DNA from: Calditrichia bacterium
GTDB lineage: Bacteria; Calditrichota; Calditrichia; JAJRVZ01
Direction: 5' to 3'
DNA: 64,000 bases
Assembly (NCBI GenBank): GCA_963777955.1
Contig: CAVZSQ010000022.1
Location: 641,020-705,019 of the forward strand
This document shows positions 13,425-63,368 of this stretch, in pieces (position 1 is the stretch's first letter; every line of letters begins with the position of its first letter). Below the pieces are notes generated by a model that worked only from the letters and a program-made list of their open reading frames with translations, was not told where the DNA came from and made no database searches. A program made the position numbers and the translations under genes.

Positions 13425-14477
13425 ATGGAAAGCATTTTCATTTTCTCCGCATCAATGATCTGTTCCTTACTGGTGACCCGGTTAGTAATAACCATTGCTA
13501 CCCGTTTTAAAATCGGTTCGCTCCCCGATACACGGAAGATCCATGTGGGATTTGTCCCGACTCTGGGCGGACTGGGAATTTTTCTGGGAACGGTGGCCGG
13601 TATCCTGGTTTCCCTGTTGTGGAAAGATTATTACTGGCAGATGTTCTCGATTAAATATATCGGAATAACCCTGGGTGCCCTGATCATGCTGCTCACCGGT
13701 ATCATTGATGATATTTACCGGCTGAGCGCCAACCGCAAATTTATCGCCCAGATCCTGGCCGCAACTGTGGTGATTCTATTCGGTTGCAAAATGACTGTAC
13801 TCGTCAATCCATTCGGTGCACCGCTCGACCTGGGTATATTTTCAATTCCGCTAACCTATTTCTGGCTGCTGCTGGTAACAAATTCCATAAATTTGCTGGA
13901 TGGTCTGGATGGTCTGGCCGGGGGGGTTTCCCTGCTGGTTCTGGCTACCTTCTCCATCCTGGCTTTCAATCAGACGGATTGGATGACTTTTGCATTATGC
14001 CTGGCACTATTGGGCGGGATACTCGGTTTCCTGAAATATAATTATCATCCGGCCCGGATTTTTATGGGGGATACCGGCTCGTTATTTCTGGGATTTCTGA
14101 TCGCCACTATTTCCCTGGAAGGATTGCAGAAATCGGCAGGTAATGTATCCCTGTTGATACCTATAGTTGCTTTGTCTGTCCCGCTGGGTGATTCCACCGT
14201 CGCTTTTTTCCGGCGATTGAATCGCGGCCAGCATCCCTTCATTGCCGATAAGGATCATATCCATCATCGCCTGCTTTTCCTGGGCTTATCGCACCGGCAG
14301 GCTGTGCATACCATATATATTTTCAGTTTGTTGTTTGGATTATCCGCTTACCTGATTTCCACGGACCTGCGCGTCTACGGAATCATCCTGCTGGCAGTGA
14401 TTACACTGATAGTCTCTGACCAGCCTGTTTCGCCTGGGTTATCTGGAAGCAGAAAAAATCAAGACTTACCTTGGTGA
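13425..14477 (+). CDS. WecA/WbpL/MraY-family (GT4 polyprenyl-phosphate N-acetylhexosamine-1-phosphate transferase)
   Basis: About 10 TM helices and the conserved INLLDGLDGLA and FMGDTGS motifs of the MraY/WecA superfamily. The likely start is ATG 13425; the track ORF starts upstream at 13353. Confidence 0.8.
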   Translation: MESIFIFSASMICSLLVTRLVITIATRFKIGSLPDTRKIHVGFVPTLGGLGIFLGTVAGILVSLLWKDYYWQMFSIKYIGITLGALIMLLTGIIDDIYRLSANRKFIAQILAATVVILFGCKMTVLVNPFGAPLDLGIFSIPLTYFWLLLVTNSINLLDGLDGLAGGVSLLVLATFSILAFNQTDWMTFALCLALLGGILGFLKYNYHPARIFMGDTGSLFLGFLIATISLEGLQKSAGNVSLLIPIVALSVPLGDSTVAFFRRLNRGQHPFIADKDHIHHRLLFLGLSHRQAVHTIYIFSLLFGLSAYLISTDLRVYGIILLAVITLIVSDQPVSPGLSGSRKNQDLPW

Positions 14478-58445: not shown

Positions 58446-58669
58446 GTAGAGGTAAAGAGTAAAACAAATACTATTGAATATCGCCAAACAATTAGTTATT
58501 ATTTAAGCGTGCCAATAAATAGTCTACCCTAATTGAACTAATAACAGACATATTGACTAAGCATAAAACAATTTTAATTTTTCGTAAACGATCATAAGTA
58601 ATCGTCTCTAATCAGAAGTATACTATGATATATGAGATATATTTTGTGTACTATTTTGAGGAGTCTGAC

Positions 58670-61186
58670 ATGAAACATTTACTGGTGATATTTATAATGC
58701 TTGGTATCATAGCAATGTTGGATTATGCCTGGGCTCAGGACGACCAGCCGCAAATGTGGAGAAATATAATTCGTGCAGATGGAACTCTCCGCAGCGGGAT
58801 TTCGGGTAGTTTTAATTCGCAGGGCTTCAGGTTGAATTCTGGTCAAAAGGGCAAGCCGATATTTATCGCCTCTGATAGTGGTTACTGGGAGCCTCTGGGT
58901 GGGAATCCGCATATTGGATATGCCTACATCAGAGCGGTTGCTGTATCGGGAACGGATGTCTATATAGGAGGTGAATTTACTGATGTCTGTTTAGTGGATA
59001 ATACCAATAATATTGCCAAATGGAATGGGACTACCTGGGAACCTTTAGGACAGGGCTTGAATGCTCCTGTTTATGCCATCACTGTATTTGGAACCGATGT
59101 CTATGCAGGAGGAGAATTCTATGAGGTTGATGGGATGCATGGAATAAACGGGATAGCCAAATGGAATGGAGAAAACTGGGAAGCTCTCGGCCAAGGTTTG
59201 AACAGCGATGTGTATGCTCTCGCCAGTGCTAATGGCGCTGTATATGCGGCGGGAGCTTTTACTGATGCGGGAGGAGTTGATAGCGCGGATGGAATTGCTA
59301 AATGGAACGGAACAAGCTGGGAAGCACTGGGCCATGGATTGAATGGTGCAATAAATGCAATGACTGTCTCTGGTAATGATTTATATGTTGGCGGCAGTTT
59401 CACTGATCCTAGTGGAGGTATGAAAACCATTAATATAGCCAAATGGAATGGAACAAGTTGGGAATCTATGTGTTCGGGTATAACTGAAGATATTTATGCC
59501 ATTGCTGTCTCTGACAGTGATGTATATGTAGGTGGAGACTTTTCGTATGTTGATGGTAACGAAAATGCTAATAGTATCGTCAAGTGGAACGGCGCCCATT
59601 GGGAAACGCTGGGATCGGGAACATCTGGCAGGGAGTTCCCTTTTGGATTCGTTTTTGCTATTGCTATCTTGGACAGTGATATATATGTCGGTGGATATTT
59701 TTATGAAGCCGGTGGAGTAAGTAATACCAATGCTATTGCCAGGTGGAATGGAACTGATTGGGAAGCGCTGGGACTGGGAATAAGCGGAGATGTACAAGTT
59801 AATGCGCTTGCCGTTTCCGATAGTGCTGTGTATGTGGGAGGTTCATTTACAAATGCAGGCGGAAATGTCAATGCAGATTGTATTGCTGGGTGGAATGGAT
59901 CTGCTTGGGAAGCGCTGGGCACCGGATTGAGTGATGGTATTTCTGCCATGGCACTCTGGGGCAATGATTTGTTTATCGGGGGAGGATTTAATGACGCTGG
60001 CGGAGACGCAAATGCAGACTATATTGCCAAATGGAAAGAAAATGGCTTTGAAGCAATAGGATCGGGATTAAATAGCGATGTCATAGCTATGGTCTCTTCT
60101 GCTGGTGGTATATATGTCGGAGGATATTTTACCGATGCTGGTGGCTTACCTGGCGCAGATCATATTGCCAGGTGGAATGGAACTGACTGGGAAGCGCTGG
60201 GTAACGGATTGAATGGATCTGTGACGTCAATCGCTATTTCGGGTCCTGATGTATATGCCGGAGGATCTTTTACTGATGCTGGTGGAATCGATTTGGCGGA
60301 TTGTATAGCCAAATGGAATGGAAATAATTGGGAAGCTCTGGGGCCAGGATTAATGTATTACGTAAATACCATTGCTGTTTCTGGTAGTGATGTATATGTT
60401 GGAGGACATTTAATTAATAACGCTGAAGATAATCCTGTCAAGTATATCACCAAATGGAATGGAGCAAGCTGGGAAGCACTGGGATCGGGAGTGAATGGTG
60501 TCGTTAATGTGATAACTATCTTCGATAATGATGTGTATGTAGGGGGATATTTCACTGACGCTGGTGGAATTCCGAATACTGGTCATATTGCCAAATGGAA
60601 TGGAGAAAGTTGGGAAGCATTTGGTCCGGGATTAAATGGCTATGTTGATGTTATCGCGTTCTCTGGCAGTGATGTGTATGTGGGAGGCGGATTTGAAGAT
60701 GCCGGCGGAAATCCAGATACAGATCATATCGCCAAGTGGAATGGAATTAACTGGGAAGCGCTGGGTACAGGAGTGAATGGCGATGTTGTTGCCTTTACTA
60801 TCTCGGGCAGTGATATCTATATGGGCGGAGGATTTACCTTTGCCGGAGGACTACCTTCATCATATTTCGCTTGCTGGCATCGGCTGGGGCTAGAACCAGT
60901 GGAGGAAAAACGGACTACACCCCATCAATTTGCACTTTACCAGAATTATCCAAATCCTTTTAATCCGTTAACACAGATCAATTACCAGCTGCCGGTAAAT
61001 TGTTGCATCTTATTGAAAATCTATGATACCCTGGGCCGGGAAGTCCGGACCTTGGTCAACGAATATCAGCATGCCGGAAATCATTCTGTGACTTTGAATG
61101 GCAGTAATCTACCTAGTGGAGTATATTTCTGCCGGCTGCAAGCCGGTGCTTTTGTCCAAACGAAAAAATTAGTGATGATTAAATAG
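58670..61186 (+). CDS. T9SS cargo protein with about 14 tandem 47-aa WNG-type repeats (predicted beta-propeller) and a C-terminal sorting domain
   Basis: Signal peptide after the likely start at 58670 (GAGGAG SD). The repeat consensus is IAKWNGxxWEALGxGLNGxVxAxxVSGxDVYVGGxFTDAGG. The C-terminal CTD reads YQNYPNPFNPLTQINYQLP.... Confidence 0.7.
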   Translation: MKHLLVIFIMLGIIAMLDYAWAQDDQPQMWRNIIRADGTLRSGISGSFNSQGFRLNSGQKGKPIFIASDSGYWEPLGGNPHIGYAYIRAVAVSGTDVYIGGEFTDVCLVDNTNNIAKWNGTTWEPLGQGLNAPVYAITVFGTDVYAGGEFYEVDGMHGINGIAKWNGENWEALGQGLNSDVYALASANGAVYAAGAFTDAGGVDSADGIAKWNGTSWEALGHGLNGAINAMTVSGNDLYVGGSFTDPSGGMKTINIAKWNGTSWESMCSGITEDIYAIAVSDSDVYVGGDFSYVDGNENANSIVKWNGAHWETLGSGTSGREFPFGFVFAIAILDSDIYVGGYFYEAGGVSNTNAIARWNGTDWEALGLGISGDVQVNALAVSDSAVYVGGSFTNAGGNVNADCIAGWNGSAWEALGTGLSDGISAMALWGNDLFIGGGFNDAGGDANADYIAKWKENGFEAIGSGLNSDVIAMVSSAGGIYVGGYFTDAGGLPGADHIARWNGTDWEALGNGLNGSVTSIAISGPDVYAGGSFTDAGGIDLADCIAKWNGNNWEALGPGLMYYVNTIAVSGSDVYVGGHLINNAEDNPVKYITKWNGASWEALGSGVNGVVNVITIFDNDVYVGGYFTDAGGIPNTGHIAKWNGESWEAFGPGLNGYVDVIAFSGSDVYVGGGFEDAGGNPDTDHIAKWNGINWEALGTGVNGDVVAFTISGSDIYMGGGFTFAGGLPSSYFACWHRLGLEPVEEKRTTPHQFALYQNYPNPFNPLTQINYQLPVNCCILLKIYDTLGREVRTLVNEYQHAGNHSVTLNGSNLPSGVYFCRLQAGAFVQTKKLVMIK
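59012..60870. repeat. tandem array of roughly 141-bp coding repeats (WNG repeats) within the T9SS cargo gene
   Basis: Recurring attgccaaatggaatgg...tgggaagc(a/g)ctggg at a period of about 141 nt. Confidence 0.7.
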
Positions 61187-61293
61187 CAATAACCGGCCGG
61201 GCGTTTCACTGATGTTCTTGAACGCAGCGCTTAAATAAATTGTCCTTGACAAAAGTACAAAGAGTGCATATATTATCCTTAAATAAATGACAA

Positions 61294-62596
61294 ATGCGAG
61301 ACTTAATAAGGCAAAAAATTGTAGACTCACTGGCTTCACCACTTCCGGCATTCACACTTCGCGATATACAATTACCCGCCATCCGGGGTAAAGCATTTGC
61401 TATTATCGGAATGCGTCGTACAGGTAAGTCCACTTACCTGTGGCAGGTACTGAACGAAAGGTTGCAACAAGGATTCGAGCGCGAAAGTTTGCTTTTTTTT
61501 GGTTTTGAAGACGAACGTCTTGCCGGTATGAAGGTATCTGATCTCCAGATAATGCTGGAGGAATATTACCGCTTATATCCGAATTTGAGAGACAAAGGCC
61601 GTACTGTATTCTTCTTAGACGAGATACAGGTGGTGCCTGGCTGGGAGATTTTTGCACGGCGTTTATTGGAAACTGAAAAGATCGAACTATTCTTATCCGG
61701 CTCGTCAGACTCGACTGTTATCACGTGAAGTGGCCACCAGTATGCGTGGCAGGGCTATGGAGGTTTTAGTACATCCGTTCAGTTTTCGTGAGTATCTGCG
61801 GCATCTTGGCAGGGAGCCTGTTTCTAACCCTGAGCGTTTACCTAAAGCATCACGGTCAGCCCTGGAAAAAGATTTACGTGAATACCTAACCAGGGGTGGA
61901 TTCCCTGAATCTGTGGGAACCATAGCCCGCGACCGTTTTGACCTGCTGCGTGGATACGTCGATACTGCTTTACTTCGTGATGTAATAGAAAGACATAGGG
62001 TGTCTCACCCGGTGGCCCTACGCTGGATGATTCGTCAGTTGCTGGCGAATGCCTCAGGATATTTCAGTATTAATAAATTTTACTGTGATCTCAAATCGCA
62101 GAGTATACCGATAGCAAAAGACACGCTTCATGAATACCTTAGTCACCTCGAGGATGCTTTTCTGATTAGAACAGTTTCATTGTCAACTAGGTCGGAACGA
62201 CGACGTATGGTGAATCCACGTAAAGTATATCCGGTAGATCCCGGTTTAATACCAATTTTTAGTGTAAGTGGAGAACCTGATCTGGGTCATGCGTTAGAGA
62301 CTTGTGTTATGTTGGAATTAGAACGGCGTGGTGCTGATATCTCTTATGTCCGTAATAAAAGCGGATCCGAGGTGGATTTCCTGGTGCGATACCCGGATGG
62401 TCACCGGGAACTGCTGCAGGTCTGTACCCATATGGATAGTGCAGATGTGATGAAGCGTGAACTCCGTGGATTGGTCGAGGCACGCGCAGAAAATAGAAAT
62501 GTCACAGCTCATATAATAATGCTTGAGCCAGAGCGACCTGCAAATCTACCTGAATCGGTCAAATTTCATGCGGCAAGTGACTGGCTTCTATCCTGA
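61294..62596 (+). CDS. AAA+ ATPase of the AAA_14/DUF4143 family (COG1373-like), with a frameshift within 61652-61728
   Basis: Walker A GMRRTGKST, Walker B FFLDEIQ, and a C-terminal DUF4143-like region. ORFs 61294-61728 and 61652-62596 overlap in different frames. Confidence 0.6.
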
Positions 62597-62599
62597 ACT

Positions 62600-63154
62600 A
62601 TGGGAAAGTTAAAAGTAAATACTACCATTCAGAAACCATCGGCAAGTCCTTCAAAAAGCAATTTACGACGTGTAAAACCGCTCTGGTATGTCTATGCCAT
62701 CGAATGTGATAATGCCAGTGTCTATATCGGCCAGACCCGTGACCTGACCCGGCGCTGGGCCCAACATCTGAAGGGACATGGCGCCCGCTGGACCAGAAAA
62801 TATAAACCGTTACGCTTGTTTTACAGCGAAGAATGTAAAAGTTATCTGGCTTCGCGAAAGAGGGAACGGGAACTGAAAAAAACCAAAGGCAGAAATTTTT
62901 TAAAAACCATATTAAAAAAGACTGATCTGCAGGCTGGTAAATCGATCAAAAAAGTACATTCAGGAGGTATTATTATGGCAGAATCAAAATCAGAATTGCT
63001 CACCGCCGGGAATATCGCCAAGGTATTGTCGGTATCCGATGCTAAAGTAAAAAAGGTAATTCAGGAATTAGCGATTAAACCTGCGGCCAAGAAGGGGGTA
63101 TGTAACTATTATTCCAAGGATACTGTATCCAGGATAAAGGCGGCTCTGAAATAA
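62600..63154 (+). CDS. GIY-YIG nuclease-domain protein with a C-terminal basic, possibly DNA-binding, region
   Basis: WYVYAIEC...VYIGQTRDLTRRWAQH matches GIY...YIG plus the conserved Arg of GIY-YIG endonucleases. It starts 4 nt after the ATPase gene. Confidence 0.55.
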   Translation: MGKLKVNTTIQKPSASPSKSNLRRVKPLWYVYAIECDNASVYIGQTRDLTRRWAQHLKGHGARWTRKYKPLRLFYSEECKSYLASRKRERELKKTKGRNFLKTILKKTDLQAGKSIKKVHSGGIIMAESKSELLTAGNIAKVLSVSDAKVKKVIQELAIKPAAKKGVCNYYSKDTVSRIKAALK

Positions 63155-63176: not shown

Positions 63177-63368
63177 TTAACGGTTCCGTAAGAAATAATC
63201 CGGTGCATCTTTTAAAACAACCTTTGTCTCGGCACGGACTTTCTGCCAGAATTTTGTTTTAAGATTATAACAGATATTATCCCATTCTTTGTCACTGAGA
63301 GTTCTCTGGTAGATTGTTTCAGCTTCCTCTTTGTCCAGGATATCGGTCAGATCAAAATATTCGCCCAT
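63177..63368 (-). CDS. small hypothetical protein (63 aa)
   Basis: ORF only; acidic, with no recognisable motif. Confidence 0.3.
   Translation of the reverse strand: MGEYFDLTDILDKEEAETIYQRTLSDKEWDNICYNLKTKFWQKVRAETKVVLKDAPDYFLRNR

What the first reader, a model, noticed from the sequence alone, without database searches (positions are those of the whole stretch)
61294..63154. Two-gene AAA_14/DUF4143 ATPase + GIY-YIG nuclease-like module, a candidate defence or mobile cassette
A COG1373-type AAA+ ATPase is followed 4 nt later by a 184-aa protein with a GIY-YIG motif (WYVYAIEC...VYIGQTRDLTRRWAQH) and a basic C-terminus. ATPase plus nuclease pairs are a recurrent architecture of anti-phage systems. 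The segment looks more GC-rich, with different Arg codon usage (cgt), than its surroundings. It is followed by small hypothetical genes, which hints at horizontal acquisition. The ATPase itself is frameshifted.
Basis: partly seen in the sequence, partly recalled or inferred. Interest (0 to 1): 0.5.

Follow-up and report, generated by a model that had tools for sequence, protein, structure and literature searches.

The report
Acquired defence-candidate ATPase beside native nuclease
The ATPase and the GIY-YIG nuclease are not a two-gene system: a widespread, horizontally acquired single-gene "phage defence candidate" ATPase has landed in front of a native nuclease gene, and its frameshift is probably a sequencing artefact.

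Summary
The ORFs and domain calls are real: AAA_14 plus DUF4143, split by one extra base, then a 184-aa GIY-YIG protein 3 nt downstream. The pairing is accidental.

The ATPase belongs to PADLOC's single-gene candidate PDC-S01. It has the most atypical codon usage of 42 ORFs in the window (z = -4.0). It has 58-80% identical homologues in about twenty phyla and one archaeon. It carries its own promoter and two 21-bp palindromic operators, at -54 and -21 from the start. None of 80 homologous loci has a GIY-YIG gene within 6 kb, and none has a recurrent neighbour.

The GIY-YIG gene is native, with typical codon usage (z = -0.4). Six of ten orthologous loci lack the ATPase, while a convergent 63-aa gene is always present. 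The protein is a UPF0213/Slx1-like nuclease joined by a disordered linker to a MerR/excisionase-like winged helix. Its nearest short relatives sit directly after hsdS in type I restriction-modification operons.

The segment is not GC-rich. The ATPase frameshift is one of four in the window, all inside the pentamer AGACT. A close relative has the gene in frame. This points to a systematic sequencing error.

Interest is modest. The operator pair and the restriction-modification link of the nuclease are the useful by-products.

The parts
61240..61260 (+). Operator palindrome O1, TTGTCCTTGACAAAAGTACAA (consensus TTGTCCTT-N5-AAGGACAA). It starts at -54 from the start codon and contains the -35 hexamer TTGACA (61246-61251).
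   Evidence: a palindrome at exactly -54 in most of the 68 (of 80) homologous loci that have one; consensus of 81 upstreams; best promoter-like site, 11 of 12 matches.
61269..61274 (+). -10 hexamer TATATT of the cassette's own promoter, 17 nt after TTGACA.
   Evidence: The position is conserved as TAtatT in 81 upstreams.
61273..61293 (+). Operator palindrome O2, TTATCCTTAAATAAATGACAA, at -21 to -1. It is 33 bp from O1 and covers the ribosome-binding region up to the ATG.
   Evidence: two or more palindromes in 49 of 80 loci, the second at -21 in most.
61294..62596 (+). PDC-S01-type ATPase gene, 433 aa when repaired. It has an AAA_14 P-loop domain (Walker A GMRRTGKST, Walker B FFLDEIQ), a helical lid, a winged helix (about residues 239-306, roughly 62009-62212) and a DUF4143 / PD-(D/E)XK-like C-terminal domain (about residues 330-432, roughly 62282-62593).
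61707..61711 (+). AGACT pentamer that holds the one extra base splitting the ATPase ORF. Removing A61709 gives GSSARLL, which restores the invariant Ala139. Removing G61708 gives GSSTRLL.
   Evidence: the orthologue L087 reads GTC-GGCTCG and is in frame. Ala139 is invariant; the same signature at three other genes; the 99.6% identical contig L086 starts exactly at 61709.
62600..63154 (+). Native GIY-YIG-wHTH gene, 184 aa. It has a variable basic N-terminus (residues 1-28), a GIY-YIG UPF0213/Slx1-like domain (residues 29-107, 62684-62920), a disordered basic linker (residues 108-131) and a MerR/excisionase-like winged helix (residues 132-183, 62993-63151).
   Evidence: Synteny. Codon usage.
63177..63368 (-). 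Convergent 63-aa gene of unknown function. It always accompanies the GIY-YIG-wHTH gene, with 22 nt between the two stop codons here.
   Evidence: Present in L001-L005, L087-L089 and the window. No family hit.

Best explanation
Two unrelated units lie side by side.

(1) Positions 61240-62596 are a self-contained single-gene cassette of the PDC-S01 kind. It encodes an Orc1/Cdc6-like AAA+ ATPase with a winged helix and a PD-(D/E)XK-like C-terminal domain. It carries its own sigma-70-type promoter and two 21-bp palindromic operators, 33 bp apart. It was acquired horizontally and now sits in the 5' intergenic region of a native gene. Inferred: the protein's own winged helix binds the palindromes and represses its promoter. 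Inferred from family membership only: when triggered, the ATPase-nuclease acts on nucleic acid, as proposed for PDC-S01.

(2) Positions 62600-63154 are a lineage-native nuclease gene. It encodes a GIY-YIG catalytic domain of the UPF0213/Slx1 type, tethered by a flexible linker to a MerR/excisionase-like DNA-binding domain. It is always accompanied by a convergent 63-aa gene. Inferred: it derives from small GIY-YIG proteins embedded after hsdS in type I restriction-modification operons, with the HsdS-like docking tail replaced by its own DNA-binding domain.

The insertion left no terminator, and no promoter-like site lies directly ahead of the nuclease start. The nuclease gene is therefore now probably read through from the ATPase promoter, making an accidental operon rather than a system.

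The ATPase frameshift is most likely a sequencing or assembly error, so the gene is probably intact in the organism.
For: ATPase identity:
- PADLOC PDC-S01 at 5e-64 and 1e-23, covering profile positions 27-407 of 412.
- The repaired protein gives continuous AAA_14 (1e-30) and DUF4143 (8e-17) matches.
- An AF2 model of the 80% identical homologue P0022 (pLDDT 80, pTM 0.79) matches Orc1/Cdc6 and the archaeal AAA+ protein SSO1545.

Foreign origin:
- Synonymous codon usage is the most atypical of 42 ORFs (z = -3.99), against z = -0.40 for the GIY-YIG gene.
- More than 7,800 close homologues were found. Homologues of 58-76% identity occur in about twenty phylum-level groups plus a Thermoplasmata archaeon.
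- The ATPase is absent from six of ten orthologous loci.

Stand-alone cassette:
- No GIY-YIG gene in 80 loci and no recurrent neighbour.
- Nothing is conserved downstream of the stop.
- Palindromes lie at fixed offsets of -54 and -21 (68/80 and 49/80 loci). The background rate is 64 hits in 695 kb.

Native nuclease:
- Ten full-length orthologues at 57-99% identity, with conserved synteny around them.
- The catalytic-type residues Y32, Y42, R52, H56 and E89 are invariant.
- PDB sequence hits to UPF0213 proteins 1zg2 and 1ywl. Fold hits to Slx1 and to MerR, RacA and RdfS winged helices.

Restriction-modification ancestry:
- P0012-P0015 lie after hsdS in four of four contexts looked up. Their tails resemble the HsdS EPAxxLLxRIK motif.

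Artefact:
- Four frameshifts sit in AGACT, each repaired by removing one base, and all four repaired genes give full-length family matches.
- The L087 orthologue is in frame.
Against: - The ATPase-nuclease adjacency, with the same 3-nt spacer, is kept in three further contigs (L086-L088, 92.6-99.6% nucleotide identity). Within this clade the pair is stable and could have become functionally coupled.
- Operator binding by the ATPase itself is untested.
- The exact insertion borders could not be fixed. No target-site duplication or terminal repeats were found.
- The ancestral state (gain versus repeated loss) rests on codon usage and parsimony.
- The canonical (D/E)xK lysine is missing from the DUF4143 domain across the family, which reads Q-V-C/S/A there. 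Nuclease activity is therefore uncertain.
- The one published heterologous test of a PDC-S01 gene was not among those that gave protection against T7, T5 or T4.
- The artefact reading cannot be proven without the reads.
Confidence: 0.8

Rival explanations
1. In this clade the acquired ATPase and the GIY-YIG-wHTH nuclease have become a working two-gene system, with an ATPase sensor or motor and a nuclease effector, co-transcribed from the ATPase promoter.
For: - A 3-nt spacer with no terminator between the genes, and no promoter-like site directly ahead of the nuclease start.
- The adjacency is kept in L086-L088.
- The DUF4143 domain lacks the canonical catalytic lysine, so an external nuclease could be useful.
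- The nuclease family is associated with restriction-modification elsewhere.
Against: - None of 80 ATPase homologues has such a partner.
- The nuclease gene is kept without the ATPase in six of ten loci.
- The QV(C/S/A) motif is family-wide, including in stand-alone copies.
- The codon usage of the two genes differs.
- No PADLOC multi-gene model matches.
Confidence: 0.08
2. The ATPase is a real, recently inactivated pseudogene, a decaying remnant of a past acquisition, and only the nuclease gene is functional.
For: - The sequence as given has one extra base.
- One of 79 homologous loci (L031) also appears truncated.
- The 99.6% identical contig L086 breaks exactly at the site, as expected if variants coexist in the population.
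Against: - There are no other lesions, and the gene is 80% identical to intact homologues over its full length.
- Three other genes, including RtcB and a T9SS cargo protein that loses its sorting domain, carry a frameshift in the same pentamer AGACT. This fits a systematic error better than four independent mutations.
- The L087 orthologue is intact.
Confidence: 0.15
3. The promoter-to-stop ATPase unit is a selfish, self-mobilising gene rather than a defence gene. The palindromes serve as recognition sites for its own winged-helix plus nuclease-like domains during transfer or addiction.
For: - Very high conservation across about twenty phyla and one archaeon.
- The conserved unit runs only from the palindromes to the stop codon.
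- It often lies near toxin-antitoxin genes and paralogous ATPases.
- It gave no protection in the one published test.
Against: - No terminal repeats or target duplication, and no palindrome downstream of the gene (3 weak hits in 79 loci).
- The palindromes overlap -35, -10 and the ribosome-binding site, which is classic repressor geometry.
- This subfamily was not found on sequenced plasmids or phages (best identity 34%).
Confidence: 0.1

Closest known systems
PDC-S01 (PADLOC phage defence candidate; COG1373; AAA_14 + DUF4143)
   Same: - Full-length HMM match, the same domain order, and a single-gene unit.
- It is described as an ATPase fused to a PD-(D/E)XK superfamily domain, very abundant and repeatedly transferred between Bacteria and Archaea (PMC12988326).
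- DUF4143 is placed in the PD-(D/E)XK superfamily (PMC3424549).
   Different: - The family is untested as a defence. It is one of 145 untested candidates (bioRxiv 10.1101/2024.01.29.577857).
- One heterologous test was not among the positives.
- The conserved dual palindromic operator seen here was not found described in the papers that mention the family.
Orc1/Cdc6-type AAA+ initiators and the archaeal AAA+ protein SSO1545 (PDB 2v1u, 2qby, 2fna)
   Same: The predicted fold is an AAA+ core, a lid and a winged helix. These are the best fold matches, at E 6e-6 to 9e-6.
   Different: - No sequence-level match to any solved structure.
- It has an extra PD-(D/E)XK-like C-terminal domain.
- It has no role in replication that can be inferred.
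UPF0213 / YhbQ-type small GIY-YIG proteins and the Slx1 nuclease domain (PDB 1zg2, 1ywl, 6seh)
   Same: Sequence matches at 3e-7 and 9e-6, fold matches, and conserved GIY, YIG, Arg, His and Glu positions.
   Different: The window protein carries an extra C-terminal winged helix and a basic N-terminal extension. The function of the bacterial family is not established.
I-TevI-type GIY-YIG homing endonucleases
   Same: The same layout: an N-terminal GIY-YIG domain, a long flexible linker and a C-terminal helix-turn-helix DNA-binding domain (the I-TevI layout is recalled from established knowledge).
   Different: - The group I intron endonuclease model scores 19.5 bits, against a cut-off of 56.
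- There is no intron or intein context.
- The gene sits at a conserved chromosomal position in all relatives, not sporadically.
Small GIY-YIG genes embedded after hsdS in type I restriction-modification operons (P0012-P0015, seen here)
   Same: 58-63% identity over the nuclease domain.
   Different: - Those proteins end in an HsdS-like EPAxxLLxRIK tail and overlap the hsdS stop by 4 or 11 nt.
- The window protein has a winged helix instead.
- No hsdR, hsdS or hsdM homologue lies in the 64-kb window.

Membership tests
PDC-S01 (PADLOC) | Full-length match to a PDC-S01 profile | tested here: met
   PDLC04787 matches at 1.1e-23 (profile positions 27-129) and 5.1e-64 (positions 130-407 of 412) for the two ORF halves.
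PDC-S01 (PADLOC) | Single-gene system with no obligatory partner | tested here: met
   In 80 homologous loci no neighbour family occurs in more than 5 loci, and the orientation and spacing of neighbours vary.
PDC-S01 (PADLOC) | Confers protection against phage | not testable with these tools
   The family is listed as an untested candidate. One tested representative was not among the four positives.
AAA_14 P-loop ATPase (PF13173) | HMM above the gathering score, with Walker A and Walker B motifs | tested here: met
   73.5 bits for the N-terminal half and 106.8 bits when repaired, against a cut-off of 27. GMRRTGKST and FFLDEIQ are visible in the translation and invariant in homologues.
PD-(D/E)XK nuclease (DUF4143, PF13635) | HMM above the gathering score | tested here: met
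   62.8 bits against a cut-off of 28.1.
PD-(D/E)XK nuclease (DUF4143, PF13635) | Canonical acidic residues followed by (D/E)xK with a catalytic lysine | tested here: not met
   E335 and E359-x-D361 are conserved. The third motif reads Q375-V-C377 here and N/Q-V-S/A in 29-32% identical plasmid homologues. A relocated lysine cannot be excluded.
GIY-YIG nuclease (PF01541) | HMM above the gathering score and conserved catalytic-type residues | tested here: met
   61.1 bits against a cut-off of 22.6. Y32, Y42, R52, H56 and E89 are invariant in 22 sequences. The domain is modelled at pLDDT above 90.
GIY-YIG homing endonuclease (I-TevI type) | Match to the intron-endonuclease model, with sporadic intron- or intein-linked distribution | tested here: not met
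   TIGR01453 scores 19.5 bits against a cut-off of 56. The gene is syntenic in ten loci.
   None of 80 ATPase loci has a GIY-YIG gene (control). Six of ten GIY-YIG loci lack the ATPase. The pair occurs only within a clade of at least 92.6% nucleotide identity.
   Codon-usage z is -3.99 for the ATPase and -0.40 for the GIY-YIG gene.
Type I R-M-embedded GIY-YIG | Gene located after hsdS inside an hsdR/S/M operon, with an HsdS-like tail | tested here: not met
   No hsdR, hsdS or hsdM homologue in the window at E <= 1e-3. The tail is replaced by a winged helix.

The most novel reading that the evidence does not exclude
The PDC-S01 unit may be a minimal autonomous element. It would be one gene whose Orc/Cdc6-like winged helix reads two phased 21-bp palindromes that travel with it across Bacteria and Archaea. 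The same protein-DNA recognition would both autoregulate the gene and take part in its spread or in self/non-self discrimination. In this clade its promoter would additionally have captured a restriction-modification-derived GIY-YIG-wHTH nuclease as a new effector.
Probability: 0.08. Interest if true: 0.7.

Novelty: new member of a known kind. Interest (0 to 1): 0.33.

Why it matters
The flagged pair should not be counted as a new ATPase-nuclease defence system.

Three by-products could be useful.

1. PDC-S01 is reported as one of the most abundant candidate defence genes in prokaryotes, yet it has no mechanism. A conserved promoter with two phased palindromic operators gives a concrete, testable handle on its regulation and DNA recognition.
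2. A small UPF0213-like GIY-YIG family sits translationally coupled after hsdS in type I restriction-modification operons and carries an HsdS-like tail. This suggests an unrecognised accessory nuclease of such systems. The window gene looks like a free-standing derivative that acquired its own DNA-binding domain.
3. The recurrent AGACT frameshift signature warns that apparent pseudogenes in this assembly should not be taken at face value.

Tried and rejected
- Exact look-up of the window GIY-YIG protein found nothing.
- Rfam found nothing relevant in 56-64 kb, only a sub-threshold SAM-III hit at 59051. No tRNA was found in the window.
- A repeat search across 61100-62750 gave no terminal inverted repeats or target duplication around the ATPase. 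No palindrome or conserved element lies downstream of the gene in homologues. The insertion mechanism and exact borders therefore stay open.
- NCBIfam gave no family for the ATPase. A profile search of solved structures gave no sequence match.
- Plasmid and phage collections hold only distant relatives of the ATPase, at 34% identity or less. No vehicle was identified.
The 80% identical P0022 was modelled instead.
- A generic scan for frame junctions mostly picked up ordinary operon gene boundaries. The candidate at 14462 was rejected, because repair would fuse two apparently complete genes.
- Literature searches for AAA_14 plus defence, and for GIY-YIG plus hsdS, gave nothing specific.
- The organism was not identified. 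Only its T9SS-type sorting domains and about 45% GC are known.
Full report
**What is in the sequence.** The three ORFs exist as described.
- 61294-61728 matches AAA_14 (2e-20).
- 61652-62596 matches the last part of AAA_14 plus DUF4143 (4e-17).
- 62600-63154 matches GIY-YIG (1.3e-16) and contains the quoted motif.
- Three bases separate the ATPase stop from the next ATG.
- The two ATPase ORFs are one gene split by a single extra base. tblastn with a repaired protein covers residues 1-138 and 139-433 in adjacent frames at 100% and 99.7% identity. The repaired protein aligns end to end with 433-457-aa homologues, through the invariant stretch GSSARLLSREVATSMRGRA.

**Composition.** The segment is not GC-rich.
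- GC is 0.448 and 0.469 for the ATPase parts and 0.423 for the nuclease gene. The mean of 42 ORFs is 0.449 +/- 0.036.
- The CGT bias is real, but only in the ATPase: 20 of 49 Arg codons, against 18% in the background. The nuclease gene has 2 of 13.
- The per-codon synonymous likelihood puts the ATPase below every one of 41 background ORFs (z = -3.99). The nuclease gene (z = -0.40) and the 63-aa gene (z = +1.83) are typical.
- The two genes therefore have different histories.

**The nuclease gene is native and does not need the ATPase.**
- Ten full-length orthologues (57-99% identity) keep the same two-domain layout.
- In L001-L005 and L089 the gene has no ATPase upstream. It keeps the same surroundings: an archease, esterase or T9SS-tail gene on one side, a convergent 63-aa gene immediately after, then a 311-aa hypothetical gene and GlnRS.
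- Only L086, L087 and L088 carry the ATPase, with the same 3-nt spacer. They are 99.6, 93.8 and 92.6% identical to the window in DNA.
- L089 is about as close (94.1%) and lacks it. The ATPase is therefore a presence/absence polymorphism inside one narrow clade.
- L001 resumes similarity to the window at 62592 (cctgaatctATG against cctgaactATG). This places the right border at the ATPase stop codon.

**The ATPase is a stand-alone, widely transferred gene.**
- PADLOC assigns it to the single-gene candidate PDC-S01 (5e-64).
- More than 7,800 close homologues were scored, the best at 80% identity over the full length.
- One genome per species gave 327 loci. The best 80 (58-76% identity) carry titles from about twenty phylum-level groups and one Thermoplasmata archaeon.
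- An HMM of the window's GIY-YIG family finds nothing in those 80 loci, within 6 kb either side. It does find all six positive controls.
- Clustering all flanking ORFs gives no family present in more than 5 loci. The largest clusters are paralogous ATPases and toxin-antitoxin-like genes.
- Neighbour orientation and spacing vary.
- 78 of 79 homologues are intact.

**A conserved regulatory element travels with the ATPase gene.**
- Upstream of the window gene, and of most homologues, lies a 21-bp palindrome, TTGTCCTT-N5-AAGGACAA.
- 68 of 80 loci have at least one copy, almost always starting exactly at -54. 49 of 80 have a second copy, usually at -21. A few have a third at -87. The phasing is 33 bp, or three helical turns.
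- The background rate is 64 hits in 695 kb.
- In the window, O1 (61240-61260) contains the -35 hexamer. O2 (61273-61293) runs from the -10 hexamer to the ATG. TTGACA-17-TATATT is the best promoter-like site in the region.
- A 32% identical plasmid homologue has a recognisable version of the element.
- The AF2 model of P0022 (pLDDT 80, pTM 0.79) shows an AAA+ core, a lid, a winged helix and a C-terminal alpha/beta domain. Its best fold matches are Orc1/Cdc6 bound to DNA and SSO1545.
- Autorepression through the protein's own winged helix is the simplest reading, but it is inference.
- The DUF4143 domain keeps E335 and E359-x-D361. It has Q-V-C where a (D/E)xK lysine would be expected, and this holds family-wide.

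**The nuclease protein.**
- Its GIY-YIG domain is of the UPF0213/Slx1 type, with invariant Y32, Y42, R52, H56 and E89.
- The AF2 model (pLDDT above 90 for residues 29-107) shows a disordered linker at 111-131. A helix-turn-helix with a beta-hairpin wing follows at 132-183. It superposes on MerR-family, RacA, Par and RdfS excisionase DNA-binding domains at 1.4-2.4 A.
- Sub-threshold HTH_17, excisionase and mad1 hits agree with this.
- The layout resembles I-TevI, but the intron-endonuclease model is not met and the gene is syntenic, not sporadic.

**An unexpected link to restriction-modification.**
- The next-closest relatives are short proteins P0012-P0015 (58-63% identity, no winged helix).
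- In four of four contexts they lie directly after hsdS, overlapping its stop by 4 or 11 nt, inside type I R-M operons. These operons also hold embedded HEPN/MNT or AbiE pairs.
- Their tails (QAGEPAEKLLERIK...) resemble the conserved EPAS-LLERIK helices of the adjacent HsdS proteins.
- The window has no hsdR, hsdS or hsdM homologue.
- The window gene therefore looks like a free-standing derivative in which a DNA-binding domain replaced the docking tail. This is inference.

**The frameshift is probably technical.**
- RtcB is also split. Relatives pin that lesion to CTTAGACTGG against CTGA-ACTGG. The ATPase lesion is GTCAGACTCG against GTC-GGCTCG in the in-frame orthologue L087.
- A scan for frame junctions found two more lesions in the same pentamer: 10462 in a GFO/IDH/MocA oxidoreductase and 35454 in a 1065-aa protein.
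- Removing one base at each of the four sites gives continuous, full-length family matches. The 1065-aa protein regains its T9SS sorting domain.
- The 99.6% identical contig L086 begins exactly at 61709.
- Four lesions in one pentamer, in unrelated genes, fit a systematic error better than independent mutations.

**Comparison with what is known.**
- PDC-S01 is one of 145 untested candidates found by 'guilt by embedding'.
- It is reported as the fourth most common defence-type gene across prokaryotes. It is described as an ATPase fused to a PD-(D/E)XK domain, with multiple inter-domain transfers.
- One representative was tested in E. coli against T7, T5 and T4 and was not among the four positives.
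- DUF4143 was placed in the PD-(D/E)XK superfamily in 2012.
- None of the papers found describes the operator pair or the hsdS-GIY-YIG arrangement. The searchable library is incomplete, so this is weak evidence of novelty.

**Verdict.** The two-gene interpretation fails its own refutation test. What is there is a new member of a known, abundant candidate-defence family, inserted by chance ahead of a native nuclease gene. Interest in the finding as stated is low. The operator architecture, the restriction-modification ancestry of the nuclease and the AGACT error signature raise it modestly.

Noticed in passing
window 10462, 35454, 55727 (- strand), 61707: Four frameshifts all lie in the pentamer AGACT on the gene strand. 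Each is repaired by removing one base of the central GA. They split a GFO/IDH/MocA oxidoreductase, a 1065-aa T9SS cargo protein (cutting off its Por_Secre_tail domain), RtcB and the ATPase. This looks like a systematic sequencing or assembly error, so other 'pseudogenes' in this assembly are suspect.
   Followed up: yes
window 61240-61293; L006-L085, 60 nt upstream of each ATPase gene: The promoter has two 21-bp palindromes, TTGTCCTT-N5-AAGGACAA, at -54 and -21, with a 33-bp phase and sometimes a third copy at -87. They are conserved upstream of this PDC-S01 subfamily in about twenty phyla and a Thermoplasmata archaeon. In some homologues the start codon lies inside O2 (ATGGAAGGACAA = MEGQ).
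   Followed up: yes
L093-L107 (for example L093 2578-4378, L099 2520-4408, L103 3583-5360, L105 3503-5372): Short UPF0213-like GIY-YIG genes sit immediately after hsdS, overlapping its stop by 4 or 11 nt, inside type I R-M operons. Some of these operons also carry embedded HEPN/MNT or AbiEi/AbiEii pairs. The GIY-YIG proteins end in a tail that resembles the HsdS EPAxxLLxRIK helix.
   Followed up: partly
window 63177-63368 (-); L001 4556-4747, L003 953-1144, L005 3810-4001, L087 1648-1854, L089 721-912: A 63-68-aa gene with no family match lies convergent to the GIY-YIG-wHTH gene in every orthologous locus, with about 20 nt between the stop codons. It may be a partner or regulator of the nuclease.
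   Followed up: partly
window 62413-62421 (residues 375-377 of the repaired ATPase); alignment A7: The DUF4143 domain has Q-V-C (N/Q-V-S/A in distant homologues) where a PD-(D/E)XK nuclease would carry (D/E)xK. The 'nuclease' domain of PDC-S01 may be non-canonical or inactive.
   Followed up: partly
window 61187-61236; L001 3911-3960; L003 340-395; L089 about 60-160: A hairpin-forming stretch upstream of the nuclease gene is weakly conserved among relatives (GGCCGG.CG...). In the window it lies between the T9SS-tail gene and the inserted cassette. It has no Rfam match and its role is unknown.
   Followed up: no
window 62600-62672 versus L089 192-216 and L001 3984-4056: The first 24 or so codons of the nuclease gene come in two unrelated versions among close relatives. 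The window, L086-L088 and L001 share one type. L089, L002 and L003 share the other. Similarity between the window and L089 starts only at 62673. This suggests recombination that swapped the ATPase cassette together with the 5' end of the nuclease gene.
   Followed up: partly
P0017 (225 aa): One relative fuses the same GIY-YIG domain to a ParE-toxin domain (PF05016).
   Followed up: no
window 58625-61186: An 853-aa repetitive beta-propeller-like protein (Rax2 and DUF6087 hits) with a T9SS sorting domain. This region has strong positive GC skew (0.26-0.33).
   Followed up: no
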